Below are positions 4,493-28,007 of a DNA stretch of 32,000 nt, piece after piece. A model generated the notes under the pieces. That model was not told the origin of the DNA. It ran no database searches and saw nothing but the letters and a program-made list of their open reading frames with translations. The translations under genes were made by a program, and so were the position numbers. Origin of the DNA: Mucisphaera calidilacus (GTDB lineage Bacteria; Planctomycetota; Phycisphaerae; Phycisphaerales; Phycisphaeraceae); contig NZ_CP036280.1 of the NCBI RefSeq assembly GCF_007748075.1, positions 570,001 through 602,000 of the forward strand. The letters are read 5' to 3'. Every line of letters begins with the position of its first letter. The stretch's first letter is position 1.

Positions 4493-4580
4493 TCCGTCCG
4501 CACCACGACCCGACCCCGCTCAGGACTCACTCAACCCCGATCCCAACCCCACGCCCACGCCACGACTCGCTAGAATCGTG

Positions 4581-4599
4581 AACAGATGATCTGTGCGCA
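4581..4599. promoter_or_regulatory. operator candidate AACAGATGATCTGTGCGCA (contains the 13-nt palindrome ACAGAT-g-ATCTGT) just downstream of a TAGAAT -10-like box (4571-4576)
   Basis: It is 17/19 identical to 29151-29169. It lies about 90 nt upstream of the first sulfatase operon. Confidence 0.5.
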
Positions 4600-4687
4600 T
4601 GGTTGTGCACCGCTCATCCCCATCACGCCGTCGTCTTTCGAGCTCACGCAACGGCTCGAAACACCGACCAGTCCAAGGGGAATCGCG

Positions 4688-6253
4688 ATGCCCGAGTCTC
4701 AACGCCCCAACATCCTCCTGCTGATGACCGATCAGCAGCGGCACGACACCGTGGCCGCCCTCGGCAACAACACCATCAAAACTCCCTCCCTCGACCGGCT
4801 CTGCGCCGAAGGAACCGCCTTCACGCGCGCCTACTCGCCCACACCCGTCTGCGTCGCCGCCCGCTGCGCACTCATGACCGGCAAGCCCGCTCACGAGACA
4901 GGCTGCTACGACAACACCGACCAGCCTCAGGACGTCCCGAGCTTCGCCGAGGTCCTCGCCGACGCCGGCTACCAGACCCACGCCGTCGGCAAGATGCACT
5001 TCACGCCCGACCCCCACCGCATGTGGGGCTTCCAGTCCCGCGACGTCTCCGAAGAGGGCTGGGAAACCGAGCCCAACGACGATTTCCGCAACTACGTCCG
5101 CGACCAGGGCTACGACCACGTCAGCGCCTTCCAGGGCATCCGCAGCGAGTTCTACTACGTCCCCCAGCCCTCGCAGCTGCCCGCACGCCACCACCACACC
5201 CACTGGACCGTTGACCGCAGCATCGACTTTCTCAAACGTCGCGACACGTCCCGCCCCTTCCTTCTCAAGACCAGCTTCATCAAGCCCCATCCGCCCTTCG
5301 AGAACCCCGAGCCGTGGAGCCGCCTCTACCGCGGCCCGCAGATGCCCGCGCCCTTCACGCCCGAGACGGGCGACGAACTGACCACCTACTGGAATCGCGT
5401 CCAGAATCGCTACAAGTATGGCGACGCGGGCAACGACGGCTACCTCGAACGTCTCCGAGTCGCCGCCTATTACGCCAACATCAGCTTCATCGACCAGCAG
5501 GTCGGACGCCTTCTCGATGCCCTCGGCGACGAACGCGACAACACCATCGTCATCTACTTCGCCGACCACGGCGAGTTCCTTGGCGACTACGGCTGCTACG
5601 GCAAACGCACCATGCAGGACGCCGCCAGCCGTATCCCGATGATCGTCCGCATGCCCGGACGCGTCCCCGCCGGACAGCAGGTCACCCGGCCCGCCACCAT
5701 CCTCGACATCTTCCCCACCCTCCTCGACGCCGCGGGGATCTCATCGGACAAGCCCTCCGACGAGGGCGAGAGCCTCATCGACCTCGCCAACGACAACTGC
5801 CAACGCGACGTCGTCTTCTCGCAGTTCCAGATGGCCGAGTACGGCCTCTACATGGCCGTCAGCGAGAACGACAAGTACGTCTACTCCGCACCCGACCGCC
5901 GCGAGATCTACGTCGACGACAAGACCGATCCCCGCGAGACACGCAACGCCATCAACGTCCCCGGCAACGACCGGCGCGCCGCCTACCTCCGCCAGAAACT
6001 CATCGACCGCCACTCCCGCGCCAACGACACCTACGCCGTCACCGACGGCCGCTGGCGTCAATACCCGCCCGTCACCTTCGACAGCACGCCCGACCGCGGC
6101 CTGCTCTACCAGGACAACCCCGCGCTCCAGGCCGCCATCGACGACCTCGGACCCGGCTACGCCCGCGACGTCACCACCACCGATGGCGTTGCCATGTCCC
6201 TGCTCTGCCCCGAAACCAGCTACCCGCCCGTTGAAGAAGAACCCGCGTCATGA
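4688..6253 (+). CDS. formylglycine-dependent sulfatase, C-x-A-x-R variant, no signal peptide
   Basis: 'NILLLMTDQQRHD' metal-binding N-terminus and 'PTPVCVAARCALMTGK' active-site box. The ATG at 4688 is preceded by AGGGG. The track's 4586 start would place the operator-like element at 4581-4599 inside the CDS. Confidence 0.9.
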   Translation: MPESQRPNILLLMTDQQRHDTVAALGNNTIKTPSLDRLCAEGTAFTRAYSPTPVCVAARCALMTGKPAHETGCYDNTDQPQDVPSFAEVLADAGYQTHAVGKMHFTPDPHRMWGFQSRDVSEEGWETEPNDDFRNYVRDQGYDHVSAFQGIRSEFYYVPQPSQLPARHHHTHWTVDRSIDFLKRRDTSRPFLLKTSFIKPHPPFENPEPWSRLYRGPQMPAPFTPETGDELTTYWNRVQNRYKYGDAGNDGYLERLRVAAYYANISFIDQQVGRLLDALGDERDNTIVIYFADHGEFLGDYGCYGKRTMQDAASRIPMIVRMPGRVPAGQQVTRPATILDIFPTLLDAAGISSDKPSDEGESLIDLANDNCQRDVVFSQFQMAEYGLYMAVSENDKYVYSAPDRREIYVDDKTDPRETRNAINVPGNDRRAAYLRQKLIDRHSRANDTYAVTDGRWRQYPPVTFDSTPDRGLLYQDNPALQAAIDDLGPGYARDVTTTDGVAMSLLCPETSYPPVEEEPAS

Positions 6254-7686
6254 GCACCCAACGCCCCCACATCATCATCCTCTGCCCCGACGAGATGCGT
6301 GCCTCCGCCGTCGCCGCCTGGGGCAACCCCGCCGTCGCCACGCCCAGCATAGACGGCCTCGCCGCACGATCGATCAAGTTCGACCGCGCCTTCACCAACC
6401 ACACCAAGTGCACACCCTCACGCTGCAGCTTCCTCACCAGCCAGTACCCCCACGTCGGCGGACACCGCACCCTCGACATGCCCGTCCGCGCCCACGAGGT
6501 CAACCTCGTCCGCTACCTCAGGGAGAACTACGGCTACCGCACCGCGCTCGTCGGCAAGAACCACTGCGTCGACGACGAGACCCAGCAACTCACCTTCGAC
6601 TTCCGCGGACGCGGCGAGGGCGGCGACGGCTACCTCGACCCCTACGAAGAAACCGGCATGCCCACCGGCAGCTACTACGTCGGTAAGGACCCCCGTAAGC
6701 TCAGCGAGCACGGCGACTACACCTCCACCACCATGGCCATCGACTGGCTCCGCGACGAGATCAACGACGACCCCGACACCCCCAGACTCCTCTGGCTCAA
6801 CTGGGACCACCCCCACTGCCCCTACCGCGCGCCCGAGCCGTTCCACGGCATCACGCCTCGCGACAAGGTCCCCGATGCCATCCCGCCCATACCCGAGTTC
6901 GAGCCGCTCTCCCACACCACACTCCGCGAGGCCTATGGCGTCGCCGACATGACCCCCGAGCAGTGGCGCGAACTCCACGCCGTCTACCTCGACATGACCA
7001 CCATGGTCGATGCCGACGTCAAACGCGTCCTCGACACCGTCGAACAACTCGGCATCGCCGACAACACCATCATCGTCTTCTGGTCCGACCACGGCGACTT
7101 CGCGGGCGACTACGGCCTGCCCGAAAAATGGGACACCTGCTTCAGCGACAACCTCGTCCACGTCCCGCTCATCATCCACGCCCCCAACACCGACGCCTCC
7201 GCCTACAACGGACTTACCGAGACCATCGATATCCTCCCCACCGTCCTCGACCTCGCCGGCATTCCCGCGCCGGGCGGCATCCAGGGCCGAAGCCACCGCG
7301 ACGCCATCCGCGGCAACACCGACCAGCCCGTGCGCGACGTCGTCTTCACAGAGGGCGGCCAGGAACCCGAGCTGCTCGAACGCGTCACGCCCGTCGACGC
7401 ACGCCCGCGACCCTGCCAGGCCTACCTCATGAAGCAGCAGGCCCTGGTCAACGAGCCGCAGATCAACCTCCGCAGCAAGATGATCCGAGGCGACCGCTAC
7501 AAGTACGTCGCACGACTCGACGGCGACGAACAGCTCTTCGACCTCGAGAACGACCCGCACGAACACCACGACCTCGCCAGGTCAGGCGACGCCGAAGACA
7601 TCCTCAACACCATGCGCCGACGCATGATGCTCAAGCTCATGGAAGCCGAGAACAACGACCCCGATCAGGATTACCTCGACTCCTGA
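6250..7686 (+). CDS. sulfatase (C-T-P-S-R type), no signal peptide
   Basis: 'HTKCTPSRCSFLTSQYP' signature plus 'IVFWSDHGDFAGDYG'. The start overlaps the upstream stop (ATGA), so it forms an operon with 4688..6253. Confidence 0.9.
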   Translation: MSTQRPHIIILCPDEMRASAVAAWGNPAVATPSIDGLAARSIKFDRAFTNHTKCTPSRCSFLTSQYPHVGGHRTLDMPVRAHEVNLVRYLRENYGYRTALVGKNHCVDDETQQLTFDFRGRGEGGDGYLDPYEETGMPTGSYYVGKDPRKLSEHGDYTSTTMAIDWLRDEINDDPDTPRLLWLNWDHPHCPYRAPEPFHGITPRDKVPDAIPPIPEFEPLSHTTLREAYGVADMTPEQWRELHAVYLDMTTMVDADVKRVLDTVEQLGIADNTIIVFWSDHGDFAGDYGLPEKWDTCFSDNLVHVPLIIHAPNTDASAYNGLTETIDILPTVLDLAGIPAPGGIQGRSHRDAIRGNTDQPVRDVVFTEGGQEPELLERVTPVDARPRPCQAYLMKQQALVNEPQINLRSKMIRGDRYKYVARLDGDEQLFDLENDPHEHHDLARSGDAEDILNTMRRRMMLKLMEAENNDPDQDYLDS

Positions 7687-15680: not shown

Positions 15681-16814
15681 ATGAGCCTGCTGGAACTCAA
15701 CAACAACTCCGACACGCCCCTCGTGCAGCAGATTCAGACGAATCTCCGCTCACGCATCCTGCGTGACGAGTTCCCCCCCGGCTACAAGCTCCCCAGCATC
15801 CGCCAGCTCAGCCATGACCTCGGCTGCTCCACCGGCATCGTCGAACGCGCTGTCTCCACACTCACCGCCGAGGGCCTGCTCAAGTCCGAGCCCCGACGAG
15901 GTGTCTACGTCCGCAAGCCCCGCGAAAAACGCGTCAAGTCCAAGGACATCGCCCTCATCCTCCCCGGACTCCGGCTCGAGCACATGGCCAGCATGAGCGG
16001 AGGCGTCCACGCAGCCCTCGCCGGGTCCGACTACCGACTCATCATCCAGTCCGCCGACAACGACTTCGACGACGAAATCCACCTCCTCGAATACCTCGCC
16101 CACGACAACCTCGTCGGCGTCGTCATCTGCCCGCCCACCGCCGACTCCTACGCCGAGCCCATCAAGGAGTTCGTCAGCCGACGCGAGATCCCCCTCGTCC
16201 TCGCCACGCACCGGCTCGTCGGCCTCTCCAGCGTCGACGCCGTCGCCATCGACGAGTTCGAGCACGGCCGCGCCGCCGTCGACTACCTGCTCAGCAAAGG
16301 ACACCGCGAGATCGCCCTCATCGGGGGACACGGGCTCTCCCTCTCCAGCCGGCAGACCCTCGAGGGCATCGCCGCGGGCCTCCGACGATACCGCCTCGCC
16401 ATGTCCGACCTCCACAAGATCGACGTCGACGTCCTCGACCTCAACGACGAAGAGCCCTGGCTCAACGGACAGGTCAGCACCGAACGGTTCCTGCGCGAAC
16501 ACAACCCGGGCATCACCGCCATCCTCTCGCTCGGCAACTACAGCACCATCGGCGCCTACCGCGCCGTCCAGAGCCTCGGCCTCAGCATCCCCGACGATAT
16601 CTCCATCCTCAGCACCGGAAGCGACCTCCAGGCCTTCGCCCTGCTCCAGCCCAGCATCACCGTCTTCACCGACCAGCTCCACGCCACCTGCGAGCGGGCC
16701 ACCTTCCGACTCCTCCAACGCATCGAAAACCCCGGCATGCAGCCCGAGGCCATCCAGATACCGCCACAGCTCATCGAACGCGAAAGCGTTCGGAAGATTC
16801 CCGTCTCGAAGTAA
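15681..16814 (+). CDS. AraR-type chimeric regulator (GntR winged-HTH + LacI/PBP1 sugar-binding domain), copy 1
   Basis: N-terminus 'LPSIRQLSHDLGCSTGIVERAVSTLTAEGLLKSEPRRGVYV' is a GntR HTH. The remainder ('DIALILPG...VGVVICPP...IPLVLA...GHREIALIGG') is a LacI-type periplasmic-binding fold. Confidence 0.85.
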   Translation: MSLLELNNNSDTPLVQQIQTNLRSRILRDEFPPGYKLPSIRQLSHDLGCSTGIVERAVSTLTAEGLLKSEPRRGVYVRKPREKRVKSKDIALILPGLRLEHMASMSGGVHAALAGSDYRLIIQSADNDFDDEIHLLEYLAHDNLVGVVICPPTADSYAEPIKEFVSRREIPLVLATHRLVGLSSVDAVAIDEFEHGRAAVDYLLSKGHREIALIGGHGLSLSSRQTLEGIAAGLRRYRLAMSDLHKIDVDVLDLNDEEPWLNGQVSTERFLREHNPGITAILSLGNYSTIGAYRAVQSLGLSIPDDISILSTGSDLQAFALLQPSITVFTDQLHATCERATFRLLQRIENPGMQPEAIQIPPQLIERESVRKIPVSK

Positions 16815-18292: not shown

Positions 18293-18484
18293 TCAACAAA
18301 GGCTGAAGACAGGCTTCGGAACGCGAGAGATGAAAACCGGGTGAGTTGCCCGGTCTCCGAAACCTGGATAAAGCCCAACAGGTTCGTCTGTAACGCCTCG
18401 TGAATTAAGCTTGTTTCGTGAACAGTTGTTTTGTTTTGCAAACCGTGTCCCATGCATCATGATCTCTATTAGGAGGAAATCGCC

Positions 18485-19765
18485 ATGTCATCGACTCGCA
18501 ACCGCCGTTTCGCCCTGCCCACCGCGGCACTCATCGCCGTCATCGCCAGCCCGGCCCTCGCCGACTTCAACGATGACTTCACCACCACCGGCATCCTCGC
18601 CGACAACTACGGCTTCTTCGGCCTCGCCACACTGCCCGATTCCGAAACCGACCCCACATCCTTCTCCGACGAGTTCGGCGCAGCCGACGACTACGTCTTC
18701 GGCGACGCCTACACCTCAGGATCCAACACCTACGGCAACAGCAGCTTCGACCTCGACGAATCCCTCGGACAGGTCGACATGACCGTCTCGGGCGGTCAGG
18801 GCGGCCACTTCCAGTTCGTCCGGCTCTCCCGCAGCGCCGACGAGTCCAACTTCTTCGACCTCTCGCAGGGTGTCCAGCTCAAGATCATGTTTGGCGGCCT
18901 CGACGGGCAGTCCTGGATCTCCACGCCCCGCAACCCCATCGTCTTCGGTTTCGCCAGCACCGACAACAACCCCGAATTCCAGATCCAGATCGGCAACTTC
19001 GCCGGCAACGACTCCCTGCTCCGCGCCCAGGCCGACGGCGTTGACCTCCCCGGCCTCACCTACCCCGTCTCCAGCATCCTCGAAGCCTCCTACCCCCCGG
19101 TCAACGTCGCCTTCTTCGGCACCGAGGCCATCCTCAACATCGACGCCGACAGCTACAGCCTCATCATTAACCCCACCCACGACGCCAACCAGGGCTGGAC
19201 CGAGATGATCCCCGACACGCCCCACGGGCTGACGTTCGCCCCAGGTGAAGGCTCCATCCCCTTCTTTGAAGCGCGGCGTGTCTACGGCGGCGCCAACACC
19301 ACCCTCAGCGTCACCAACTTCTCCGTCACCGGCACCACCGTTGTCGTCGACCCCGGCTTGCCCGGCGACTTCAACGAGGACGGCGTCCTCGATTCACTCG
19401 ACATCGACCTGCTCTTCGCCAACCTCGGCGCTACCACCCCCTCCGACTACGACCTCAACGAAGACGGCACCGTCGACAACGCCGACGTTGACCTCCTCGT
19501 CGAAGGTGCCGACTACCTCAACTCCTTCTACGGCGACGCCAACACCGACCAGGCCGTTGACCTGCTCGACCTCTCGGCACTCGCCTCCAACTTCGAAGAA
19601 GTCGGCAAGCTCTGGGCCGATGGCGACTTCAACGGCGACGGATACGTCAACCTCCTCGACCTCTCCATCCTCGCCACCAACTTCGACCAGTCCAAGGCCG
19701 TACCCGAGCCCGCCTCCGTGGCCGTCCTCGGACTCATGGCCGCCGCACTCCGTCGTCGTGGCTGA
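18485..19765 (+). CDS. secreted protein: unrecognised beta-rich N-domain + 2 dockerin-like modules (4 EF-hand repeats) + PEP-CTERM anchor
   Basis: AGGAGG lies 8 nt upstream. Signal peptide ends ...ASPALA/DF. The repeats are 'GDFNEDGVLDSLDIDLL', 'DLNEDGTVDNADVDLL', 'GDANTDQAVDLLDLSALA' and 'GDFNGDGYVNLLDLSILA'. The C-terminus is 'VPEPASVAVLGLMAAALRRRG'. Confidence 0.8.
   Translation: MSSTRNRRFALPTAALIAVIASPALADFNDDFTTTGILADNYGFFGLATLPDSETDPTSFSDEFGAADDYVFGDAYTSGSNTYGNSSFDLDESLGQVDMTVSGGQGGHFQFVRLSRSADESNFFDLSQGVQLKIMFGGLDGQSWISTPRNPIVFGFASTDNNPEFQIQIGNFAGNDSLLRAQADGVDLPGLTYPVSSILEASYPPVNVAFFGTEAILNIDADSYSLIINPTHDANQGWTEMIPDTPHGLTFAPGEGSIPFFEARRVYGGANTTLSVTNFSVTGTTVVVDPGLPGDFNEDGVLDSLDIDLLFANLGATTPSDYDLNEDGTVDNADVDLLVEGADYLNSFYGDANTDQAVDLLDLSALASNFEEVGKLWADGDFNGDGYVNLLDLSILATNFDQSKAVPEPASVAVLGLMAAALRRRG
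19364..19765 (+). repeat. dockerin x2 + PEP-CTERM cassette, copy 1 (partner copy at 22450-22845)
   Basis: The roughly 130-aa C-terminal modules of the two proteins align end to end with one 1-aa gap, at roughly 60 % aa identity by eye. Long near-identical nucleotide runs include ttctacggcgacgccaac and gacctgctcgacctctc. Confidence 0.75.
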
Positions 19766-19796
19766 GCCGCAAACGATGACATGATTCTCCCCCTCC

Positions 19797-19816
19797 TGGG
19801 CCGGGAAACCGGCCCA
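19797..19816 (+). terminator. stem-loop TGGGCCGG-GAAA-CCGGCCCA after PEP-CTERM gene A (no U-tract)
   Basis: An 8-bp stem with a GAAA tetraloop, 31 nt after the stop at 19765. Confidence 0.4.
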
Positions 19817-19931
19817 TGGGGCTTCAAGGAAAACGGACGGCAGGGACGCTCATCAACCACAGAAAGAGGAATCGACCGACTCGCACTTCGTAACCCGGCT
19901 ACTCAGCCAGATTTAGGATTGGAGAAAGACC

Positions 19932-20744
19932 ATGAGCATGAACCTCAAGACAACCAGCGCCCTCCTGACCGTCGCCTTCGCGGCGACCACCGCATCCGCC
20001 AACTTCATGGACGACTTCGACAGCGTCGGCGAACTCGCCAACAACTACGGCTACTTCCACTTCGGCACCAACGAAGGCGGCGCAGGACTCGACGCCAACA
20101 CCTTCAGCAACGGCGCCAGCTTCGCGCTCGACGACGCCAACAGCAAAGTCAACCTCTACCTGCCCGACCCCGGCGGCTTCAACTTCCTCCGCCTAACACG
20201 CGGCATGGATGCGGAAAACCTCTACGACATGAGCCAGCCCGTCCAGCTCAGCGCCAAGGCCTCCGGACTCGATAACCTCAACTTCGACTCGATCCGCAAC
20301 CCCTTCGGGCTCGGCCTCGACTTCCCCGAGGGCACCAACCCCGATATCACCGTCAAGATCCAGCTCACCAGGAGCTACACCAACCCGCCCACCTCACGGA
20401 TCCAGGTCCAGGCCAACGACGGCTCGTCCTTCGATCTCCCCGGCGGCGCACAGCAGACCATCAACATCAATGTCCAGAACAAGGACATCGTCTTTGACAT
20501 CGACGCCGACAGCTACAGCCTCACCATCGGCAACACCGTCGTCATCCCCGATACCCTTCACGGCATCGTCTTCGACACCGCCGTCGGCGGCACGCCCTTC
20601 ATCGAAGCTCAGCACATCTTCGATGGCGGCGCCACCGACTTCTCCGTCGAGTACTTCGCCGGCACCGGCACCGCGATCCCCGAGCCCGCCTCACTCGCTA
20701 TGCTCGCCCTCGGCGGCATCGCGATGATCCGTCGCTCCGCCTGA
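19932..20744 (+). CDS. secreted PEP-CTERM protein carrying the same unrecognised N-domain as 18485..19765
   Basis: Signal peptide ends ...ATTASA/NF. It shares blocks with the upstream gene (NFMDDF.., LANNYGYF, IDADSYSLTIGNT, IPDTLHG..PFIEA). The C-terminus is 'IPEPASLAMLALGGIAMIRRSA'. Confidence 0.75.
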   Translation: MSMNLKTTSALLTVAFAATTASANFMDDFDSVGELANNYGYFHFGTNEGGAGLDANTFSNGASFALDDANSKVNLYLPDPGGFNFLRLTRGMDAENLYDMSQPVQLSAKASGLDNLNFDSIRNPFGLGLDFPEGTNPDITVKIQLTRSYTNPPTSRIQVQANDGSSFDLPGGAQQTININVQNKDIVFDIDADSYSLTIGNTVVIPDTLHGIVFDTAVGGTPFIEAQHIFDGGATDFSVEYFAGTGTAIPEPASLAMLALGGIAMIRRSA

Positions 20745-20761
20745 TCACGCTCGCCTCTCCA

Positions 20762-20789
20762 CCCGAGGTCTCCGAAAGGAGACCCCGGG
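20762..20789 (+). terminator. stem-loop CCCG-a-GGTCTCC-GAAA-GGAGACC-c-CGGG after PEP-CTERM gene B (no U-tract)
   Basis: A 7-bp core stem with a GAAA tetraloop, plus a 4-bp extension across one A/C mismatch. It lies 17 nt after the stop at 20744. Confidence 0.4.
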
Positions 20790-20865
20790 TCTTGCAACCA
20801 ACCCTCCAGACGTCACAAACCCGGTGACCAGAACCCTCCAGGAATCGATCAGTTAGGGGCTCCCC

Positions 20866-22845
20866 ATGACGCCGGCACGCAGTACCACCCGCATCGCAAT
20901 GGCCGCCTTCCTCACCTGCGCCGCGGCATCGACCGCCACCGCAGGACTCGGCACCAGCGCGCCCGCCAACCCGCTGCTCATGGGCGGCAACCAGAACTTC
21001 GCCAACTACGACAACCTCCTCAACAAAAACTCCTTCCTCGCCATGATCCGGGCACTCCAGATGCCCAACATGCGCTACATCGCCGGCAGCCCCGCCTCCT
21101 TCTGGGACGCGTTGAATGCCGAGTTTGTCCCCGAGCAGGAGATCCTCGATATCTGGCCCGACGCCTGGTTCGTCTCCAACGGCGCGAACGACTGGGTCAA
21201 CGGCATGCCCGCCTCCCAGTTCTCCGTCGACCGCATGGACGCCGCCATGGCCACCGCGGGTGTCTCCAACATCCAGTGGATCGCCAACCTCACCACCCGG
21301 GAAGACGATCAGGACGACCTCTTCACCTACCTCGACGCCCAGGGATACAACTACGATTACATCGAGGCCGACAACGAGGCCTTCTTCTGGGGCAGCGAGT
21401 TCGCCGCAGCCGGAGGCGGAACCGAGTACGGCAAACGCATCGCCAACAAGCTCGCTCCCACCGTCCGCGCCCTCAACCCCAACGCCAAGATCGGCGCCGA
21501 CTTCCGCAGCAACGAGTTCTTCACCGGCGAATCCGAGTCCGGCGGCTTCAACGCTAACTGGAACAGCAACCTCTACGGCCAGATCAACCGCAACGGCAAC
21601 GGGCCCCACTTCGACGCCATCATCCTCCACCACTACAAGATGGGCAGCGACGGACTCAGCGGCTACAGCACCGCCAACCGCCGACAGGCCTTCCTCGCCT
21701 TCCCCGAAGCCACCATCGAACGCGCCGCTCGCGTCGCCGAAGAAGACTACGGCGACCTGCCCATCTGGATCACCGAGTACAACGTCATCGCCTACAACGG
21801 CTCCGGCGGCGGCTCCAACGGCGAATGGATCCGATCCACACAGAACACCGGATGGAACGCCTTCTACCAGGCCGGCTTCTACCTCACCGCCTTCGCCAAC
21901 CCCGACGACATCGAACTCATGAACCACCACGCCGTCCGATCCGGCATCTGGGGCATGGCCAAGGAAATCAGCACCTCCCAGGCCGAACTCAACGCCACAG
22001 GCGTCATCTACGCCCACGTCACCGACATCCTCGTCGACGCCGAAGAAATGATGCCCGTCGAGCCCGACAACAACCCCGACATGAACATCACCATCGTCGG
22101 CGACAGCGACCTCAACGCCTTCCAGGCCGCCGCACTCTACGACCAGGACAGCGAAACCCTCAGCATCCTCGTCATGAACCGCGACGACGCCGCACACGAC
22201 TTCCAGCTCTCCGACTACGGGCTCTACTCCAGTCTCGACATCGTTACCTACCTCGCCGACGACCCCGACGCCAACGGCTACAAGACCGTCAGCCTCACCA
22301 GCAGGATCCCCCTCTACGAACAGGACGCCGCTCCCTTCCAGCCCACCACCTCGCAGCAATTCCTCGCACTCGGACAGCCGCTCGACATCGAACTCCCCGC
22401 CTTCTCCTTCTCCGTCCTCACCCTCAGCGGGCAGGAAGCGCCACTCGCCGGTGATCTCAACGGCGACGGCGTCGTCGATACCCTCGACATCAACGTCCTC
22501 TTCGACAACCTCGGCAGCTCCGACCCCTTCTACGACCTCAACCAAGACGGCTCCGTCGACAACGACGACGTCACCCTCCTTGTCGAGGGCGAAGACTTCA
22601 TCAATTCCTTCTACGGCGACGCCAACGGCGATCAGTCCGTCGACCTGCTCGACCTCTCCGCACTCGCCGCCGACTTCGACACCGCCGGCCACGAATGGGA
22701 GCAGGGCGACTTCAACGGCGACTCCGCCGTCAACCTCACCGACCTCTCCATCCTCGCGTCCAACTTCGGTAACACCAACGCCGTCCCCGAACCCGCCGCA
22801 GCAACACTCCTCCTCGCACTCGCCGCTATCCGACGCCGACGCTGA
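20866..22845 (+). CDS. secreted clan GH-A-like (TIM-barrel) glycoside hydrolase + 2 dockerin-like modules + PEP-CTERM
   Basis: It has a signal peptide. 'YIEADNEAFFWG' is a candidate acid/base NE and 'PIWITEYNV' a candidate nucleophile TE. A beta-sandwich follows, then a dockerin cassette very similar to that of 18485..19765. The C-terminus is 'VPEPAAATLLLALAAIRRRR'. Confidence 0.7.
   Translation: MTPARSTTRIAMAAFLTCAAASTATAGLGTSAPANPLLMGGNQNFANYDNLLNKNSFLAMIRALQMPNMRYIAGSPASFWDALNAEFVPEQEILDIWPDAWFVSNGANDWVNGMPASQFSVDRMDAAMATAGVSNIQWIANLTTREDDQDDLFTYLDAQGYNYDYIEADNEAFFWGSEFAAAGGGTEYGKRIANKLAPTVRALNPNAKIGADFRSNEFFTGESESGGFNANWNSNLYGQINRNGNGPHFDAIILHHYKMGSDGLSGYSTANRRQAFLAFPEATIERAARVAEEDYGDLPIWITEYNVIAYNGSGGGSNGEWIRSTQNTGWNAFYQAGFYLTAFANPDDIELMNHHAVRSGIWGMAKEISTSQAELNATGVIYAHVTDILVDAEEMMPVEPDNNPDMNITIVGDSDLNAFQAAALYDQDSETLSILVMNRDDAAHDFQLSDYGLYSSLDIVTYLADDPDANGYKTVSLTSRIPLYEQDAAPFQPTTSQQFLALGQPLDIELPAFSFSVLTLSGQEAPLAGDLNGDGVVDTLDINVLFDNLGSSDPFYDLNQDGSVDNDDVTLLVEGEDFINSFYGDANGDQSVDLLDLSALAADFDTAGHEWEQGDFNGDSAVNLTDLSILASNFGNTNAVPEPAAATLLLALAAIRRRR
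22450..22845 (+). repeat. dockerin x2 + PEP-CTERM cassette, copy 2
   Basis: See 19364-19765. Confidence 0.75.
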
Positions 22846-22989: not shown

Positions 22990-24837
22990 TCAGCCCGACG
23001 CCTTGGGCGCCACACCCGAAGACCCCTTCGGATACAGCTTGTCCACGCCCACGAAGAACATCCGCAGCGACACCGCCGCCACCACGGCGCCGACGATCAT
23101 GAAGTGCCACAACGCCAGCAGAAGGCCCATGAACGCAAAGACCAGGCCCAGGATCGATCCCATCATGCTCAACGCCGTCACGCTCAACCAGAGCAGCGAG
23201 TCCGACGCGTCACGCTCCAGATCCGCCGCACGACGGATCGGCCCCCAGAAACCGAACGGACGCATCCGCTTGTAGAAAGCCACCAGCTTCTCCTTCGACT
23301 CCGGCGGGGTCAGCAGGATCACGATCACCGAGACCGTCGTGCTCGTGCACACGATCAGAAACGTCCGCAACGCCCAGAGTGTGTCGTTCGTGATCTCAAC
23401 CTCGAACCACACCAGCAACGAACGCGTCCACTCGTTCACATGCCCCGTCAGCATCAGCGTCGTGATCACCACCGAGCACGCCTGCGCCGACAACTCGCCC
23501 CAGATGTTCACACGCCACCACACGAAACGCAGCAGCTTCACCATGCCCACCGACTGAACCACGTTGATCGCGAACATGAACAGGTACAGGATGTCGTTCA
23601 CCATGAACCCGATCACCGACGCCAGCAGCGTGATGAACACCATGTACCAGCGTGAGGCCGTCACGTAGTGATGCTCGTCACGGCCCGGCGCCAGGTACGC
23701 CTTGTAAATGTCGTTCGTGAAGATCGACGTCGAGTTGTGAATGTTCGTATCGAACGAGGACATGAACGCCGACAGAAAGCCCGCCGCCATCAACCCCATC
23801 AGGCCGATCGGCATGTACTGACGCACCAGCGCCGGGAACACCATCTCGTGGTCCGCGATCGCCTGACCGTCCGGACCCACCGCCGCCGGAAACTGCTCCA
23901 GCAGGTACGCGTCACTGATCAGGAACAACCCCGCAAGACCGCAGATGTAGTAAGGCCAGTTGCGGAACGCGAAGTTCAGGATGCCCGTGTACAACCCCGT
24001 GTAAATGACCTCACGCTCGTCCTTCAGACAGAAGCTGCGCTGGTTGTGCGGGTTGTAGTTCCCCTGCTCCATGATCGCGAACACGATGTAGAAGATCAGC
24101 ACCCAGATCACCGTTGGCATCAGCGATAACAGCTTCTCCGAGTCGGCGTGGCTCTCCAACGCCGTCCGCAGACCGATCGGACCACCCATGTCAATGAAGA
24201 TAAACGTCAACAGCATGTAGGTCGCGAACAACGCCACCAGCACCTCGAACAGGTCCGTCCACACCACACCGTGCACGCCCGAGGCCGCCGAATAAACAAG
24301 CGTCACCAAAATCAGGACCGCGATGATCACGATGCTCGTGTCCATCGTCATGCCGAGAAACAGGAAGTCAGGCGGCAGGCCAAGCAGCACCGTCACCACC
24401 TTCTTCATACCCACCAGGCCGATCGCCGCCCACATCGCGGCCACGATGATCCCGTACAGCACCGAGTCGAACGTCCGCGCCACGTCCGCGCCACGCCCGT
24501 GATAACGCGCGTGATAAAACTCCATCTGTGTCACGAACGCCGCACGACGCCAGAGCCGGACGAAAAACACCGACGAGATCGCCATCGTGAAGATGCTCCG
24601 CCACGTGAACCACAGCCCACCCAGACCGTCCTGGCGGATCTTCCGCGAGTCCGAAAGCATCGTCGACGCGTTCAAACCTGTCGCCAGAACCGACGCGCCC
24701 GCCAGCCACCACGGCATCTTCCGGCCCGCCAGAATGAACTCGTCCGTGTTGCTGCCCGCACGCTTCGCGAGCTTCGCGCCCAGAACAAGCAGACCGACCA
24801 TGAAACTGACCACGACGGTCCAGTCAATCCAGTGCAT
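22990..24837 (-). CDS. sodium:solute symporter (SSS/SSF) family permease
   Basis: 615 aa, polytopic. The N-terminus 'DWTVVVSFMVGLLVLGAKLAKRAGSNTDEFILAGRKMPWWLAGASVLAT' is the typical SSF TM1-TM2 region. It lies 24 nt downstream of the preceding minus-strand gene, with a GAAGGA Shine-Dalgarno sequence. Confidence 0.85.
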   Translation of the reverse strand: MHWIDWTVVVSFMVGLLVLGAKLAKRAGSNTDEFILAGRKMPWWLAGASVLATGLNASTMLSDSRKIRQDGLGGLWFTWRSIFTMAISSVFFVRLWRRAAFVTQMEFYHARYHGRGADVARTFDSVLYGIIVAAMWAAIGLVGMKKVVTVLLGLPPDFLFLGMTMDTSIVIIAVLILVTLVYSAASGVHGVVWTDLFEVLVALFATYMLLTFIFIDMGGPIGLRTALESHADSEKLLSLMPTVIWVLIFYIVFAIMEQGNYNPHNQRSFCLKDEREVIYTGLYTGILNFAFRNWPYYICGLAGLFLISDAYLLEQFPAAVGPDGQAIADHEMVFPALVRQYMPIGLMGLMAAGFLSAFMSSFDTNIHNSTSIFTNDIYKAYLAPGRDEHHYVTASRWYMVFITLLASVIGFMVNDILYLFMFAINVVQSVGMVKLLRFVWWRVNIWGELSAQACSVVITTLMLTGHVNEWTRSLLVWFEVEITNDTLWALRTFLIVCTSTTVSVIVILLTPPESKEKLVAFYKRMRPFGFWGPIRRAADLERDASDSLLWLSVTALSMMGSILGLVFAFMGLLLALWHFMIVGAVVAAVSLRMFFVGVDKLYPKGSSGVAPKASG

Positions 24838-24861
24838 TTAATATTGTCCTTCTTAGCTAAA

Positions 24862-27171
24862 TCAGCGGCCGTCAGAGCCGAGGATGGTGATGGAATAGCC
24901 CGGAAGACGCAGCGACGAAGACAGCCGCAGCTCCGCACGATCAAGCAATTCAGGCGAACTCATGTACAGCGTCGGCGCACCCGAGTACTGGAGCCCCACG
25001 TCCTCGGTGATCCCCAGCGAACGCACGTCCACCTCCACCGCGTCAGGCGTCAGGTTCAGCAGCACGCCCCGCGGCCCGAGCTCCCCGCCCGAATCCGAGA
25101 AACGCCAGCCGCGGATCAGCGGCAGAGGCGACGACCCGCCCTCAACCTCCAGCTCAACCTCCCCACCGAAATCAACCGACGCCACACGGTCACGGCCGTT
25201 CGCCGCGTGACCGAACAACGACATCACCAGGCCCGTCGGCGTGACGGCAAGAGGTTCGGCCTTGGCGTCGGCGTCCTTGACGAGAAGGCCGTCGAAGGTG
25301 GACCCGTTGCGGTCGTGCAAGGCGTTGAACAGGTTGCCGCCGTACGGATTGTGGAAGCACAAGAGCGTCACGTTCTCGTCCTCGAGAAACACCGACAGCA
25401 TCGAGGACAACGCCAGGCCCTGCGCCCACGTGTGACGCACACCACCCATCCGGTCGTTCACGTTGAACTCCGTCAGCCACAGGTCATAAGGCGTAAGCTC
25501 CGGGAAGCTGTGACGGATGTGCCCCCACTCCTCGTGCGGCACCAGCATCATGAACTGAACCGCCTCCGGATCCTGCAACAGACGCGCCTGCTCGTTCTGC
25601 TGCTCCGCACTGCCCCACGGCCGCGGGCCGCCCGGCAGCAGCCCCACACCCGCGTACGGGTGAAGCGTCACCGCATCCACCTCATCCGAAAGGTGCGGGA
25701 TCACGTGCTGATTCCACGTCCGACGACGCTCGCTCACGTGAGGCGGACCGCCGTCCGAACCGATCACCGCAACCTTCGCCTCCGGAAACTCGGCCTTGAT
25801 CGCCGACGTCCACACGTTGCACGCCTCCGCGTAAGCCTCAGGCGTCGGGAACTTCACGTGCACCAGCGGCTCCGCACCAATCCCGAAAAAATACTCGTTC
25901 CCCAACTCAACGTACTTCACCGGCATCCCCAGTCGCTCCGCGCGACGAAGCTGCCCAAGCTGATTCTCGAGGTCCTTCGTCACCATGTTCAGCATGAACA
26001 CAGGCGTGAAACCCAGACGCTTCTGACCCTTCGCGTAATTCTCGAGCGTGTACGTCCGCGAGTCCTCCACCATCCCCTGAACCCAGTGCATCATCCGATC
26101 ACGCGGCGCGTTCCGGTCAAGCCACCCCGTGTCCCAGTCCCAGTAATTCCCGATCGTGCCGGCCGGGTATCGGAGGTTGCCCAGGTTGAGTTGTCGCATC
26201 GCGTCGGAGAGGTCGCGGTTGTCCCAGAACTGCGACACCGCCGTCAGGTTGCCGTTCATCCCCACGTAGTCGCGGGCGATCTCTCGCTCCTCGCCGAGAC
26301 GCGCCGTCACGCGGCTCGGCGGACGAACCAGCGGATACGCCGCCCAGGGCGACGACGACAACTGCTCCTCAACATCCGTCCCCAGGCTCGCCTGAGCCAA
26401 TCCCCCCGAGACCTGATCCGCCATCAGCCGCGCAACACCAATCCGGTACGGATCATTCCCATACAGCTTCATCGCGCGCACCGTCGGCAGCAACGCCGTC
26501 TCGGTCAGCGATGACGACGACCAGTCAATCCCGTGATCCACCTCCGCCGCCCCCAGCAGCGTCTCGCCATCAAGCGTCAGACGCACCGAAGCGTCATCAA
26601 CCTCAAGCCGGAGCGTCTTGCCCTCCAGCGAGCTCGGACCCTCCGTCTGACCCTCATAAATCACCTCCGTCTCACCGCCCGCACGCAACTCCACACGCGC
26701 CGACACCCGACCACGCCGCCCACGCTCCTTCACACAACCCACGATCGCCTGAATCGACGGATCGCCTCCCTGACCCGTAAACCCGAAGCCGATCTGCGCC
26801 GCCGCACGGTCGACATACTGAAACGTCGGGTACGACGAAACACTCACGTCGATCGACGCCTCAGAACCCGGCCCCAGACCCACCTTGTACGTCCGGTGCG
26901 TCAGACTCGTTTGGCCAAACCCCGGCCCCTCGCCGCCTCCCTTCGGCTGCGACGCCACCAGCATCACACCACGCTCGCCCGATGCCTTCTGCACGCGATT
27001 CGACATCGGACCGATCGGCCAACGGCCAACCTTCCAGTCCGCCTCCACCAGCTGCACGTCGGCGTAGTGCCCGAAGTGCACCTCCAGCAGCGCGCCACCA
27101 ACCCACGAACCACACATCAACAACACAACAACAGCGAGCGCACCACAACGGCTCATGCAGGTCTGCAGCAT
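24862..27171 (-). CDS. secreted two-part protein: lectin/LamG-like N-domain + clan GH-A-like hydrolase (distant paralog of 20866..22845), no PEP-CTERM
   Basis: Signal peptide (CGALAVVVLLMCGSWVGG). 'LRLEVDDASVRLTLDGETLLG' looks like a beta-sandwich. The catalytic half has 'LRYPAGTIGNYWDW', 'YVELGNEYFFG' and 'LWLTEFNVND'. GAAGG lies 7 nt before ATG 27171. Confidence 0.7.
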   Translation of the reverse strand: MLQTCMSRCGALAVVVLLMCGSWVGGALLEVHFGHYADVQLVEADWKVGRWPIGPMSNRVQKASGERGVMLVASQPKGGGEGPGFGQTSLTHRTYKVGLGPGSEASIDVSVSSYPTFQYVDRAAAQIGFGFTGQGGDPSIQAIVGCVKERGRRGRVSARVELRAGGETEVIYEGQTEGPSSLEGKTLRLEVDDASVRLTLDGETLLGAAEVDHGIDWSSSSLTETALLPTVRAMKLYGNDPYRIGVARLMADQVSGGLAQASLGTDVEEQLSSSPWAAYPLVRPPSRVTARLGEEREIARDYVGMNGNLTAVSQFWDNRDLSDAMRQLNLGNLRYPAGTIGNYWDWDTGWLDRNAPRDRMMHWVQGMVEDSRTYTLENYAKGQKRLGFTPVFMLNMVTKDLENQLGQLRRAERLGMPVKYVELGNEYFFGIGAEPLVHVKFPTPEAYAEACNVWTSAIKAEFPEAKVAVIGSDGGPPHVSERRRTWNQHVIPHLSDEVDAVTLHPYAGVGLLPGGPRPWGSAEQQNEQARLLQDPEAVQFMMLVPHEEWGHIRHSFPELTPYDLWLTEFNVNDRMGGVRHTWAQGLALSSMLSVFLEDENVTLLCFHNPYGGNLFNALHDRNGSTFDGLLVKDADAKAEPLAVTPTGLVMSLFGHAANGRDRVASVDFGGEVELEVEGGSSPLPLIRGWRFSDSGGELGPRGVLLNLTPDAVEVDVRSLGITEDVGLQYSGAPTLYMSSPELLDRAELRLSSSLRLPGYSITILGSDGR

Positions 27172-27199
27172 CGATCAGCCTTCAGTATGTCGAATCCAG

Positions 27200-27225
27200 A
27201 AAAACCCCGGGCAACACGCCCGGGG
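27200..27225 (-). terminator. intrinsic terminator after the small PEP-CTERM gene (minus strand: CCCCGGGC-gtgtt-GCCCGGGG-TTTTT)
   Basis: An 8-bp all-GC stem, a 5-nt loop and a T5 tract on the minus strand. It lies 15 nt after the stop at 27240 and 28 nt before ATG 27171. Confidence 0.7.
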
Positions 27226-27239
27226 CATCAAAGTCTTCA

Positions 27240-27911
27240 TCAACGACGACGCATCCCGCAAAGCCCCAGCAGCGCCAGACCCGCGGCCAGGCTGCTCGGC
27301 GTCGGAACCGGAGCGGCTTCAAAGGTCACGAAGCGCGGGCGGTACTTCGTTTCGGGGCCGGCGGCCATGATCAGCTTCTCGCCAGCGGCGAGGACGGTGT
27401 TCGCGTTGAAGCTGTATTCGATCTTGCCGTTGCCGCCACCCGGGATCACGAGCGACGCTGCACCGATCGATACGTCGATGGATTCGCCGTCACCAAGGAG
27501 CGTCACCGCGGTCGAGGTCAGCGTCACGTCGATCGGGTTCATCGCGCTGTCGAAGAACGAGAAGGCGATGGCCTCGTCGTAGACCTGGCCGTTGCCAGTG
27601 TTGATCTGATCGATAGCGCCCCCGTCGTCGCCACCGACATTCGGGCCAGTTGAGTTGATGCCCGCGCCATTGTTGCCGCCACCACCATTGTTGGTCAGAT
27701 CGACCGTGCCCCCGACGTTCAGCGCATTGCCGAGGGCTTCGACGACGACCTTCACACTCGGGTCGGGGGTCAACGTGACGGACGGCTGGCCGTCACCCGT
27801 AACGAGGCCCGCATACTCGCTGCCCGAAATCAGGCTGACCTCCATCGTCGCGCCAAGCGACGCCGAAGCCGCAAAACACCCAACCAGAGCACACTGCGTT
27901 AAACGAATCAT
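27240..27911 (-). CDS. small secreted Gly/Asn-rich PEP-CTERM protein (V-P-T-P variant)
   Basis: ATG 27911 is preceded by a perfect AAGGAGG, so the track's 28004 start is rejected. Signal peptide ends ...AASASLGA. The C-terminus is 'VPTPSSLAAGLALLGLCGMRRR'. Confidence 0.75.
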   Translation of the reverse strand: MIRLTQCALVGCFAASASLGATMEVSLISGSEYAGLVTGDGQPSVTLTPDPSVKVVVEALGNALNVGGTVDLTNNGGGGNNGAGINSTGPNVGGDDGGAIDQINTGNGQVYDEAIAFSFFDSAMNPIDVTLTSTAVTLLGDGESIDVSIGAASLVIPGGGNGKIEYSFNANTVLAAGEKLIMAAGPETKYRPRFVTFEAAPVPTPSSLAAGLALLGLCGMRRR

Positions 27912-28007
27912 CTCATTCCTCCTTACAAAGAAAACCAGAATGGCCAAAGTGAATCCATGACATGAAAAAACCAGATACACAAGGGCACACAGCCCTGAAA
28001 CCACAAA

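What the first reader, a model, noticed from the sequence alone, without database searches (positions are those of the whole stretch)
4581..4599. 19-nt operator-like element shared 17/19 by two promoter regions 24.5 kb apart
AACAGATGATCTGTGCGCA (4581-4599, upstream of the sulfatase 1-2 operon) and AACAGATCAACTGTGCGCA (29151-29169, between regulator 2 and sulfatase 5) differ only at two positions of the central trinucleotide. Both contain ACAG-N5-CTGT dyad symmetry. The first is additionally a perfect ACAGAT-g-ATCTGT palindrome and sits just 3' of a TAGAAT -10-like box, which is a classic repressor position. A chance match of this length between two short intergenic regions is very unlikely. 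The element therefore defines a regulon linking distant parts of the island, most plausibly through one of the AraR-type regulators.
Basis: seen in the sequence. Interest (0 to 1): 0.75.

Follow-up and report, generated by a model that had tools for sequence, protein, structure and literature searches.

The report
Conserved operator of a planctomycete sulfatase regulon
The shared 19-mer is real: its 13-bp palindromic core (ACAGAT-N-ATCTGT) is very probably the DNA-binding site of the neighbouring GntR/LacI-hybrid regulator, because the same palindrome sits inside that regulator's own promoter in several related bacteria and marks three transcription units of a sulfated-glycan utilisation island here.

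Summary
AACAGATGATCTGTGCGCA (4581-4599) and AACAGATCAACTGTGCGCA (29151-29169) match 17/19. This is the only such match among the 14 intergenic regions, and 1 of 100 shuffles does as well. The window comes from Mucisphaera calidilacus (Phycisphaerae).

The functional core is the 13-bp dyad ACAGAT-N-ATCTGT. In five other loci encoding orthologues of regulator 2 (28008-29138, minus strand; four to five lineages in all, counting Mucisphaera), the same dyad fills the 16-nt spacer of a TTGnnn-16-TAnnnT promoter. That promoter ends 6-7 nt before the regulator's start codon.

A weight matrix built only from those foreign sites ranks three window sites first:
- 29150-29166
- 4580-4596

None of 300 simulated windows, and none of 172 kb of control loci, scores as high. 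Promoters of regulator 1 orthologues lack the dyad.

Genes that follow the three sites in Mucisphaera, or their neighbours in the same units, lie beside or downstream of the regulator in relatives.

Best reading: an autoregulated repressor operator that defines a small sulfatase and glycan regulon. It is a new member of a known kind. Binding, repression and the inducer are inferred, not shown, and a genome-wide scan was not possible.

The parts
4581..4599 (.). Site 1: the reported 19-mer. The dyad core ACAGATGATCTGT is at 4582-4594 and the 17-bp matrix window at 4580-4596. It lies about 100 nt upstream of the sulfatase 1 start.
   Evidence: Matrix trained on foreign sites only: 18.6 bits and 17.9 bits.
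29151..29169 (.). Site 2: the reported 19-mer. The dyad core ACAGATCAACTGT is at 29152-29164. On the minus strand the 19-mer covers the whole 16-nt spacer of the regulator 2 promoter, plus one base of the -10 hexamer and two bases of the -35 hexamer.
   Evidence: Matrix 19.3 bits. Layout matches that of the orthologues.
18420..18436 (.). Site 3 (new): GAACAGTTGTTTTGTTT, with dyad ACAGTTGTTTTGT at 18422-18434, 57 nt upstream of the dockerin-protein gene. It shares the left flank TCGTGAACAG with site 1.
   Evidence: Matrix 17.1 bits and 15.9 bits. The maximum for third rank in 300 simulated windows was 13.9, and the control maximum was 14.5.
28008..29138 (-). Regulator 2, the proposed binding protein: an N-terminal GntR winged helix-turn-helix joined to a C-terminal LacI/GalR-type sugar-binding domain.
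   Evidence: Pfam, PDB matches, 100% identity to an M. calidilacus protein.
29146..29173 (-). Inferred regulator 2 promoter: -35 TTGCTG (29173-29168), 16-nt spacer CGCACAGTTGATCTGT (29167-29152), -10 TATAGT (29151-29146), then 7 nt to the ATG at 29138. This would give a leaderless transcript.
   Evidence: Read from the sequence. The same TTGnnn-16-TAnnnT-6/7-start layout occurs in L001, L002, L005, L006 and L013. It falls below the threshold of the strict sigma-70 scanner.
29200..29210 (+). Isolated extended half-site CGCGCACAGAT, with no partner arm, about 50 bp from the centre of site 2. It may be an auxiliary box.
   Evidence: Its function is speculative.
4688..7686 (+). Sulfatase 1 - sulfatase 2 operon, the predicted target of site 1.
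   Evidence: Pfam. The sulfatase 2 orthologue is the divergent neighbour of the regulator in L006 and L013 and lies on the same contig in L001.
18485..22845 (+). Dockerin protein - PEP-CTERM protein - second dockerin protein unit, the predicted target of site 3.
   Evidence: Pfam. The PEP-CTERM orthologue lies in the regulator-led operon of L002.
22990..28004 (-). Genes transcribed together with regulator 2: a 254-aa protein, a 769-aa protein and a sodium:solute symporter.
   Evidence: Gene spacing and Pfam. The 769-aa orthologue lies in the regulator operon of L006 (a weaker 32%-identical homologue in L001), and a homologue of the 254-aa protein follows the regulator in L013.
29313..30770 (+). 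Sulfatase 5, divergent from regulator 2 and sharing the intergenic region that holds site 2.
   Evidence: Pfam. Its orthologue is the last gene of the regulator-led operon in L001.
4571..4576 (+). It is unverified: no -35 match lies 16-18 nt upstream.
15681..16814 (+). Regulator 1, a 33%-identical paralogue of regulator 2. It was considered as the binder and is not favoured.
   Evidence: Its own promoter and those of its orthologues lack the dyad.

Best explanation
The 13-bp dyad ACAGAT-N-ATCTGT, the core of the 19-mer, is the operator of regulator 2 (28008-29138), a GntR-wHTH/LacI-type-sensor hybrid. A dimer would bind one dyad. At its own gene the dyad fills the spacer between -35 and -10 of a promoter that starts transcription at or next to the start codon. 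Bound protein would therefore exclude RNA polymerase and repress both the regulator and the genes transcribed with it (254-aa protein, 769-aa protein, Na+/solute symporter). It would probably also repress the divergent sulfatase 5 gene. Two further copies place the sulfatase 1-2 operon (site 1) and the dockerin/PEP-CTERM unit (site 3) under the same control. A sugar released from a sulfated glycan would bind the C-terminal domain and release the DNA. What is shown: the sequence, position and statistical specificity of the sites, their conservation in relatives, and the domain architecture. What is inferred: binding by regulator 2, repression rather than activation, the nature of the inducer, and the transcription start sites.
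For: (1) In five loci from other organisms that encode regulator 2 orthologues (53-59% identity), the dyad lies 11-13 nt upstream of the start codon within TTGnnn-16 nt-TAnnnT-6/7 nt-start. The spacer sequences are L013 AGCACAGATAATCTGA, L006 CTCACAGATGAACTGA, L002 CTCACAGAAGAAATGA, L001 and L005 CACAGAAnGTTTGTGT, and Mucisphaera CGCACAGTTGATCTGT. (2) A palindromised 17-bp matrix trained on the five non-Mucisphaera sites ranks 29150-29166 (19.3 bits), 4580-4596 (18.6) and 18420-18436 (17.1) first in the window, with the fourth hit at 12.1. None of 300 Markov-simulated windows reaches any of those three ranks. In 172.5 kb of control loci the maximum is 14.5. (3) ACA-N7-TGT occurs at only three places in 32 kb, and all three lie in the 7% of the window that is intergenic. 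(4) Synteny: sulfatase 2 orthologues are divergent neighbours of the regulator in L006 and L013. In L001, GH38 and the sulfatase 5 orthologue are in the regulator-led operon, with a weaker (32%) homologue of the 769-aa protein; the sulfatase 2 orthologue is convergent just downstream. The PEP-CTERM orthologue is in the regulator operon of L002. Orthologues of the 769-aa protein and of sulfatase 4 are in the regulator operon of L006, and a homologue of the 254-aa protein follows the regulator in L013. (5) Promoters of regulator 1 and its orthologues have a similar leaderless-type layout (clear in three of the four) but no dyad; the matrix maximum there is 12.5. (6) Domain architecture: GntR wHTH plus Peripla_BP_3/LacI-type domain, as in the AraR subfamily, whose founding member is an autoregulated sugar-responsive repressor that binds 16-bp palindromes (PMC1950556). 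(7) There is no RNA-level alternative: no Rfam hits, and sites 2 and 3 fold no better than shuffles.
Against: There are no binding or expression data. The Mucisphaera genome could not be scanned, so a wider or dispersed distribution of the motif is not excluded. Homologues of sulfatase 1 in other genomes sit next to AraC-, LacI- or regulator-1-type regulators and have no dyad, so site 1 has no orthologous counterpart to confirm it. No convincing promoter could be placed at sites 1 and 3. The dyad reads AC..GT from the outside in, the reverse of the canonical GntR signature GT-Nx-AC. The right arm is weak in L002 and L006. The orthologue set amounts to only four or five independent lineages. 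The GCGCA tail shared by sites 1 and 2 is not explained by the conserved motif.
Confidence: 0.75

Rival explanations
1. The dyad is bound by regulator 1 (15681-16814), or by both paralogues, rather than by regulator 2 alone.
For: Regulator 1 has the same domain architecture and lies in the same island. An AACAGAT half-site abuts its start codon. In L019 a sulfatase 1 homologue is the divergent neighbour of a regulator-1-type gene. In L020, orthologues of the second dockerin protein and the 254-aa protein lie near a regulator-1-type gene.
Against: The two regulators are only 33% identical and have different recognition-helix sequences. The promoters of regulator 1 orthologues in L018, L019 and L020 have no dyad; the matrix maximum is 12.5, below the control maximum. 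The half-site at 15672 is not conserved in the 75%-identical L018 orthologue, which reads TATAACAATACT.
Confidence: 0.1
2. The conserved dyad is recognised by some other, unlinked transcription factor, or is a structural feature of this promoter class. Its association with regulator 2 would then be one of position only.
For: Assigning a motif to an adjacent regulator is inference. The dyad does not follow the GntR GT-Nx-AC signature. The N-terminal domain shows no specific sequence match to the AraR DNA-binding domain.
Against: The dyad occurs in 6 of 6 regulator-2-type promoters and in 0 of 4 regulator-1-type promoters (three of which show the same leaderless-type layout). It therefore tracks the protein and not the promoter class. 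Sites 1 and 3 lie outside any recognisable core promoter.
Confidence: 0.1
3. Site 2 is functional as part of the regulator's promoter, but its match to site 1 (and site 3) is a chance similarity, or a neutral remnant, with no regulatory role.
For: The unbiased chance estimate for a 17/19 match among intergenic regions is about 0.01, which is not vanishingly small. No orthologous promoter confirms site 1. Site 3 has a weak right arm.
Against: Site 1 is the best palindrome of all and scores 18.6 bits with a matrix that never saw a Mucisphaera sequence. Sites 1 and 3 exceed every simulated and control score. Both are intergenic and lie upstream of genes, or of units containing genes, whose orthologues are linked to the regulator elsewhere.
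Confidence: 0.05
4. The 19-mer belongs to a genome-wide dispersed repeat (REP-like or mobile-element end) unrelated to these genes.
For: The full genome could not be scanned. The GCGCA and CGTGA flanks recur within the window.
Against: There are only three copies in 32 kb, and there is no similarity beyond 19-22 nt. No stable shared hairpin forms. The core is conserved at one specific promoter position in distant genomes. No match of 15 bits or more occurs in 172 kb of related-lineage DNA.
Confidence: 0.03

Closest known systems
AraR of Bacillus subtilis (AraR subfamily of the GntR family)
   Same: The same chimeric architecture, a GntR winged HTH fused to a LacI/GalR-type sugar-binding domain. 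A palindromic operator of about 16 bp sized for one dimer. An operator in the regulator's own promoter, giving autoregulation. Several operators scattered over separate carbohydrate-utilisation transcription units. In some promoters, extra boxes near the main one (PMC1950556; PMC4494728).
   Different: The operator sequence is unrelated: ACAGAT-N-ATCTGT against ATTTGTACGTACAAAT. Its arms read AC..GT rather than GT..AC. The N-terminal domain gives no sequence hit to the AraR DNA-binding domain at E<=0.01, and the C-terminal domain matches AraR only weakly (3tb6, E=2e-7). The phylum is Planctomycetota, not Firmicutes. The target genes are sulfatases, dockerin/PEP-CTERM proteins and a symporter, not arabinose genes. 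No pair of in-phase full boxes was seen.
LacI/GalR-family sugar repressors (CcpA, PurR, LacI)
   Same: The effector domain is most similar to these (best PDB hits E=1e-17 to 2e-21). The logic is the same: ligand-released repression at palindromic operators that overlap promoters.
   Different: The DNA-binding domain is a GntR winged HTH, not the LacI HTH with hinge helix (Pfam PF00356 is absent). No NCBIfam equivalog reaches its cut-off.
HutC/FadR-type GntR divergon regulators
   Same: A single palindromic site in a divergent intergenic region that is predicted to control both the regulator's operon and the divergent gene, with additional half-site boxes nearby (PMC4494728). The N-terminal domain is closest in sequence to YvoA/NagR.
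   Different: The effector domain is of another type, and the motif does not follow the GT-Nx-AC consensus.

Membership tests
AraR subfamily of GntR-family regulators (protein) | N-terminal GntR-type winged helix-turn-helix | tested here: met
   PF00392 GntR: E=8e-15 (regulator 2) and 2e-13 (regulator 1). PDB hits to the YvoA, GabR and FadR-type wHTH.
AraR subfamily of GntR-family regulators (protein) | C-terminal effector domain homologous to GalR/LacI periplasmic-binding-protein fold | tested here: met
   PF13377, PF00532 and PF13407. PDB: LacI, CcpA and PurR at E=1e-17 to 2e-21, and the AraR C-terminal domain 3tb6 at E=2e-7.
AraR subfamily of GntR-family regulators (protein) | Orthology to B. 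subtilis AraR (arabinose-responsive) | tested here: not met
   No AraR DNA-binding-domain hit at E<=0.01. No NCBIfam equivalog passes its cut-off. The gene context is sulfatases, not ara genes. This is the same architecture but not an AraR orthologue.
GntR-family operator | Palindromic site with the signature (N)x-GT-N(0-15)-AC-(N)x | tested here: not met
   The dyad is palindromic, but its arms are ACAG...CTGT (AC outside, GT inside). No conserved flanking GT/AC appears across the orthologues.
Autoregulated repressor operator | Site overlaps the core promoter of the regulator's own gene, and is conserved across orthologues | tested here: met
   The dyad lies in the 16-nt spacer, 11-13 nt from the start codon, in 6 of 6 regulator-2-type loci. 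The promoter hexamers are inferred, not mapped.
Autoregulated repressor operator | Sequence-specific binding by the regulator and release by an effector | not testable with these tools
   Requires EMSA, DAP-seq or ChIP, and ligand screening.
Regulon (shared operator upstream of several transcription units) | Additional sites, scoring above background, upstream of functionally linked genes | tested here: met
   Sites 1 and 3 score 18.6 and 17.1 bits against a null maximum of 15.5 and 13.9 for those ranks, and a control maximum of 14.5.
Regulon (shared operator upstream of several transcription units) | Genome-wide site distribution restricted to promoters of related genes | not tested
   The M. 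calidilacus genome was not retrievable: searches returned nothing, and the source genome was absent from the results.
Dispersed repeat (REP-like) | Many copies, extended similarity, stable hairpin | tested here: not met
   Three copies in 32 kb, similarity limited to 19-22 nt, folds no better than shuffles at sites 2 and 3, and none in 172 kb of control DNA.

The most novel reading that the evidence does not exclude
In relatives, one regulator-led operon with a single operator carries most of these genes. In Mucisphaera the operon has been broken up, and separate fragments carry their own copy of the operator. These copies share lineage-specific extended arms (yGyGmACAGAT: CGTGAACAG at sites 1 and 3, TGCGCACAG at sites 1 and 2 and at an isolated box 50 bp from site 2). 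This would mean the Mucisphaera protein reads a palindrome of about 23 bp, using contacts that its orthologues lack, or that operators spread by short-patch copying. Together with the reversed AC..GT arm polarity, this would be a distinct DNA-recognition mode for GntR/LacI hybrids outside Firmicutes.
Probability: 0.25. Interest if true: 0.5.

Novelty: new member of a known kind. Interest (0 to 1): 0.4.

Why it matters
Planctomycetes carry very large sulfatase repertoires for degrading sulfated algal glycans. Full-text searches here found no described operator for these regulators, and, to my knowledge, few transcription factor-operator pairs have been defined in the phylum at all. This result provides a concrete, conserved and experimentally testable pairing: regulator 2 with ACAGAT-N-ATCTGT. 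It also gives a first regulon sketch of five to ten genes, and promoter models with likely leaderless starts for a class of GntR/LacI hybrid regulators. NCBIfam has no equivalog for that class, and the AraR subfamily has so far been characterised in Firmicutes. It is useful for annotating and engineering these organisms, but it does not change any concept.

Tried and rejected
- **Isolated ACAGAT half-sites as extra operators.** ACAGAT is 8/12 intergenic and [AC]ACAG[AT]T is 8/14 intergenic against 0.76 expected. Five of the eight [AC]ACAG[AT]T copies belong to the three dyads. The copy at 15672 is the discriminator of the regulator 1 promoter and is not conserved in L018. The ACAGAT hexamer at 12460 (minus strand) is part of a conserved GH38 promoter and reads ATCTGC in L018. 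Rejected as supported sites.
- **RNA element.** No Rfam hits. Only site 1 folds slightly better than shuffles, through a stem that site 2 does not share. Rejected.
- **ECF-sigma-type promoter reading (TGAAC-N16-...) for sites 1 and 3.** Site 2 lacks GAAC and there is no common -10. Rejected.
- **Segmental duplication.** Flanks beyond the 19-mer are unrelated. Rejected.
- **Strict sigma-70 scan of the three regions.** No hits. The promoter models therefore rest on cross-species alignment only.
- **Conservation of site 1 at orthologous sulfatase 1 promoters.** The homologues found (L014, L015, L017, L019) sit under other regulators and have no dyad. Uninformative rather than contradictory.
- **Retrieving other parts of the M. 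calidilacus genome.** The regulator 2 locus and the sulfatase paralogue P0010 were not on record.
- **Genome and metagenome scans.** These added only one new close orthologue, L006.
- **MAFFT alignment of non-coding DNA with L018.** Too diverged apart from the core promoters.
- **Repeat census.** Dominated by codon-bias similarities in coding DNA and not informative.

Full report
**Observation.** Site 1 contains a perfect 13-bp palindrome, ACAGAT-G-ATCTGT (4582-4594). Site 2 contains ACAGAT-C-AACTGT (29152-29164). The degenerate pattern occurs twice against 0.01 expected, but that test was chosen after the fact. I therefore compared all 14 intergenic regions of the window (2206 nt) with each other in both orientations. 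Exactly one 19-nt window pair reaches 17/19, and it is this pair. One of 100 shuffles does as well. Similarity ends at the borders of the 19-mer, so this is a short element and not a duplicated segment. On its own the match is real but only moderately significant. The case rests on comparative evidence.

**Context.** The window is from Mucisphaera calidilacus (Phycisphaerae, Planctomycetota); regulator 2 and sulfatase 1 are 100% identical to proteins of that species. The window encodes five S1-type sulfatases, a GH38 and a GH127-like hydrolase, a sodium:solute symporter, dockerin, PEP-CTERM and DUF1559 proteins, and two regulators. Both regulators combine an N-terminal GntR winged HTH with a C-terminal LacI/GalR-type sugar-binding domain, which is the AraR-type architecture. 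They are only 33% identical to each other. Neither reaches any NCBIfam equivalog cut-off. The C-terminal domain resembles LacI, CcpA and PurR, and more weakly the AraR C-terminal domain 3tb6. The N-terminal domain is closest to YvoA/NagR and gives no hit to the AraR DNA-binding domain at E<=0.01.

**The dyad in the promoters of regulator 2 orthologues.** Orthologues of regulator 2 (53-59% identity) were found in metagenome assemblies and MAGs, and their loci were fetched. Read in the sense of the regulator gene, the upstream regions are:

| Locus | -35 | 16-nt spacer | -10 | Gap to start codon |
|---|---|---|---|---|
| Mucisphaera | TTGCTG | CGCACAGTTGATCTGT | TATAGT | 7 nt, ATG |
| L013 | TTGATT | AGCACAGATAATCTGA | TACTAT | 6 nt, ATG |
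| L006 | TTGTGT | CTCACAGATGAACTGA | TACCTT | 6 nt, GTG |
| L002 | TTGATT | CTCACAGAAGAAATGA | TACAAT | 7 nt, ATG |
| L001 | TTGTAA | CACAGAACGTTTGTGT | TATTAT | 6 nt, ATG |
| L005 | TTGTAA | CACAGAAAGTTTGTGT | TACAAT | 6 nt, GTG |

All six therefore have a TTGnnn hexamer, a 16-nt spacer occupied by an ACA-N7-TGT dyad, a TAnnnT hexamer, and the start codon 6-7 nt later. That layout would give a leaderless transcript. The start codons are supported by a conserved N-terminal peptide. The L013 dyad, ACAGAT-A-ATCTGA, is almost the same sequence as window site 1. At window site 2, the 19-mer is essentially the spacer of the regulator's own promoter. These organisms are too distant for neutral non-coding conservation; even a relative with 75% protein identity cannot be aligned outside core promoters. 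The conservation therefore indicates selection on the element.

**Independent recovery of the window sites.** A palindromised 17-bp weight matrix trained only on the five non-Mucisphaera sites ranks 29150-29166 (19.3 bits), 4580-4596 (18.6 bits) and 18420-18436 (17.1 bits) first in the window. The fourth hit scores 12.1. In 300 first-order Markov simulations of the window, the maxima for ranks 1, 2 and 3 were 18.2, 15.5 and 13.9. In 172.5 kb of control loci (paralogous regulators, sulfatase homologues under other regulators, regulator 1 orthologues), the maximum was 14.5 and nothing reached 15. The plain pattern ACA-N7-TGT occurs at only these three places in 32 kb, and all three lie in the 7% of the window that is intergenic. 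It shares the left flank TCGTGAACAG with site 1, just as site 2 shares the right flank CTGTGCGCA with site 1.

**Synteny.**
- In L006 and L013 the sulfatase 2 orthologue is the divergent neighbour of the regulator.
- In L001 the regulator leads an operon that continues through a PEP-CTERM protein, a DUF1559 protein, a weak (32%) homologue of the 769-aa protein, GH38 and the sulfatase 5 orthologue. The sulfatase 2 orthologue is convergent just behind it.
- In L002 the PEP-CTERM orthologue of the site 3 unit is in the regulator's operon.
- In L006 the orthologues of the 769-aa protein and of sulfatase 4 follow the regulator.
- In L013 a homologue of the 254-aa protein follows the regulator.

Each of these loci has only one strong site, at the regulator's promoter. 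In Mucisphaera the same gene set is spread over at least three transcription units, and each is preceded by a dyad. This is what a regulon looks like after an operon has broken up.

**Which regulator.** Regulator 1 and its orthologues (L018 75%, L019 and L020 about 44%) have a similar leaderless-type promoter layout, clear in Mucisphaera, L018 and L019: TTGACA-16-TATAAC-6-ATG in Mucisphaera (15647-15683), TTGACT-16-TATAAC-6-ATG in L018, and TTGACT-17-TATGAT-6-ATG in L019. They have no dyad; the matrix maximum in those loci is 12.5. The dyad therefore follows the regulator 2 lineage and not the promoter class. Regulator 2 is the likely binder.

**Mechanism (inferred).** By analogy with AraR and the LacI family, a regulator 2 dimer would occupy the dyad in the absence of a sugar effector. 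AraR itself is an arabinose-released repressor that binds 16-bp palindromes, including one at its own promoter, sometimes with paired boxes (PMC1950556). In the spacer of its own promoter, the bound dimer would block RNA polymerase. That would autoregulate regulator 2 and repress the downstream 254-aa protein, 769-aa protein and symporter genes. A single site in a divergon commonly controls both sides (PMC4494728), so sulfatase 5 is a probable target as well. Sites 1 and 3 would repress sulfatases 1-2 and the dockerin/PEP-CTERM unit. Their exact relation to promoters is unknown. TAGAAT at 4571-4576 is a plausible -10 box but has no -35 partner, and the scanner finds no strict sigma-70 promoter at any of the three regions.

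**What remains unexplained.**
- The GCGCA tail that makes the match 19 nt long is not conserved in other species. Within Mucisphaera the arms look extended: CGTGAACAGAT and CGTGAACAGTT at sites 1 and 3, TGCGCACAGAT and TGCGCACAGTT at sites 1 and 2, and an isolated CGCGCACAGAT at 29200-29210, about 50 bp from site 2. All have G at positions -2 and -4. This may reflect lineage-specific extra contacts, an auxiliary box, or short-patch copying of operators.
- The arms read AC..GT from the outside, the reverse of the GntR signature GT-Nx-AC.
- The GH127-like/sulfatase 4/sulfatase 3 operon and GH38 have no strong dyad in Mucisphaera, although sulfatase 4 and GH38 orthologues lie in regulator-led operons elsewhere. 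They may belong to regulator 1.

**Alternatives.** An RNA element is unlikely: there are no Rfam hits and no shared structure. A dispersed repeat is unlikely on present data but cannot be excluded without the whole genome, which could not be retrieved (the source genome was absent from the results). Full-text searches found no description of this motif or of the operators of these regulators.

**Verdict.** This is a conserved, autoregulatory, AraR-like operator for a planctomycete GntR/LacI hybrid regulator, with three copies in the window defining a small sulfated-glycan regulon. It is a new member of a known kind. It is of moderate interest as a rare, directly testable transcription factor-operator pair in Planctomycetota.

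Noticed in passing
window 15647-15683 and 29136-29173; L001 3634-3671; L005 9966-10003; L006 9942-9979; L013 3042-3079; L002 9836-9874; L018 9968-10003; L019 9967-10004: In both paralogous regulator lineages, almost every regulator gene examined has TTGnnn-16/17 nt-TAnnnT followed after 6-7 nt by the start codon, with no Shine-Dalgarno sequence (the exceptions are L020 and the more distant L008, where the layout is unclear). This suggests that these regulators are expressed from leaderless mRNAs across Phycisphaerae.
   Followed up: partly
window 29236-29247 and 30814-30825; L006 9839-9849: The 12-mer CACAGAATCCCG occurs upstream of sulfatase 5 and again in the convergent gap downstream of it. 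GCACAGAATC also lies directly before the start of the sulfatase 2 orthologue in L006, next to a CTGTG-cata-CACAG palindrome (L006 9831-9844). It could be a second half-site-like element with the opposite arm arrangement.
   Followed up: no
window 15623-15640: The palindrome TTCACG-cgaata-CGTGAA lies immediately upstream of the -35 hexamer of the regulator 1 promoter. It is a candidate operator for regulator 1. It is only loosely matched in L018 (TTTCGTGCAATCTGAC).
   Followed up: partly
window 15431-15458; L018 9783-9796: A perfect CTGTGCACAG palindrome lies at the 3' end of GH38. The 14-nt block TGACCAwGACAGAT, beginning at the GH38 stop codon, is conserved between Mucisphaera and L018 although the rest of the spacer has diverged.
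   Followed up: no
window 12456-12484; L018 6788-6816: A conserved GH38 promoter-like block, TTGCAT-17 nt-TATGCT (TACTCT in L018), is 24/29 identical and lies about 140 nt upstream of the GH38 start. It contains no dyad, so GH38 probably lies outside the regulator 2 regulon in this genome.
   Followed up: partly
L013 3077-3127; L002 9872-10000: The called genes P0002 and P0005 start too far downstream. The conserved N-terminal peptide (F..S/V-IDP...P-L-x-RQV) extends to the upstream start codon that abuts the promoter.
   Followed up: yes
window 19447-19729 and 22530-22812: A 283-nt direct repeat at 79% identity links the C-terminal dockerin regions of the two dockerin-domain genes, so these are paralogous modules within the site 3 unit.
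   Followed up: no
window 4593-4610: The GCGCA tail of site 1 can pair with the downstream UGUGCAC, giving a 7-bp stem (GUGCGCA-uggu-UGUGCAC; 41-nt fold z=-2.0). Site 2 does not share this.
   Followed up: partly
L014 9009-11593; L015 9149-11530; L017 8702-11521; L019 8357-11122: Close homologues of sulfatase 1 (54-63% identity) sit next to four different regulator types in different genomes: AraC, AraC, LacI and a regulator-1-type GntR/LacI hybrid. Regulator-sulfatase pairings appear to be reshuffled frequently. A 64%-identical paralogue (P0010) exists elsewhere in M. calidilacus.
   Followed up: partly
window 24838-24861: The 24-nt gap between the 769-aa gene and the symporter gene has only 25% G+C in a window that averages 64% G+C.
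   Followed up: no
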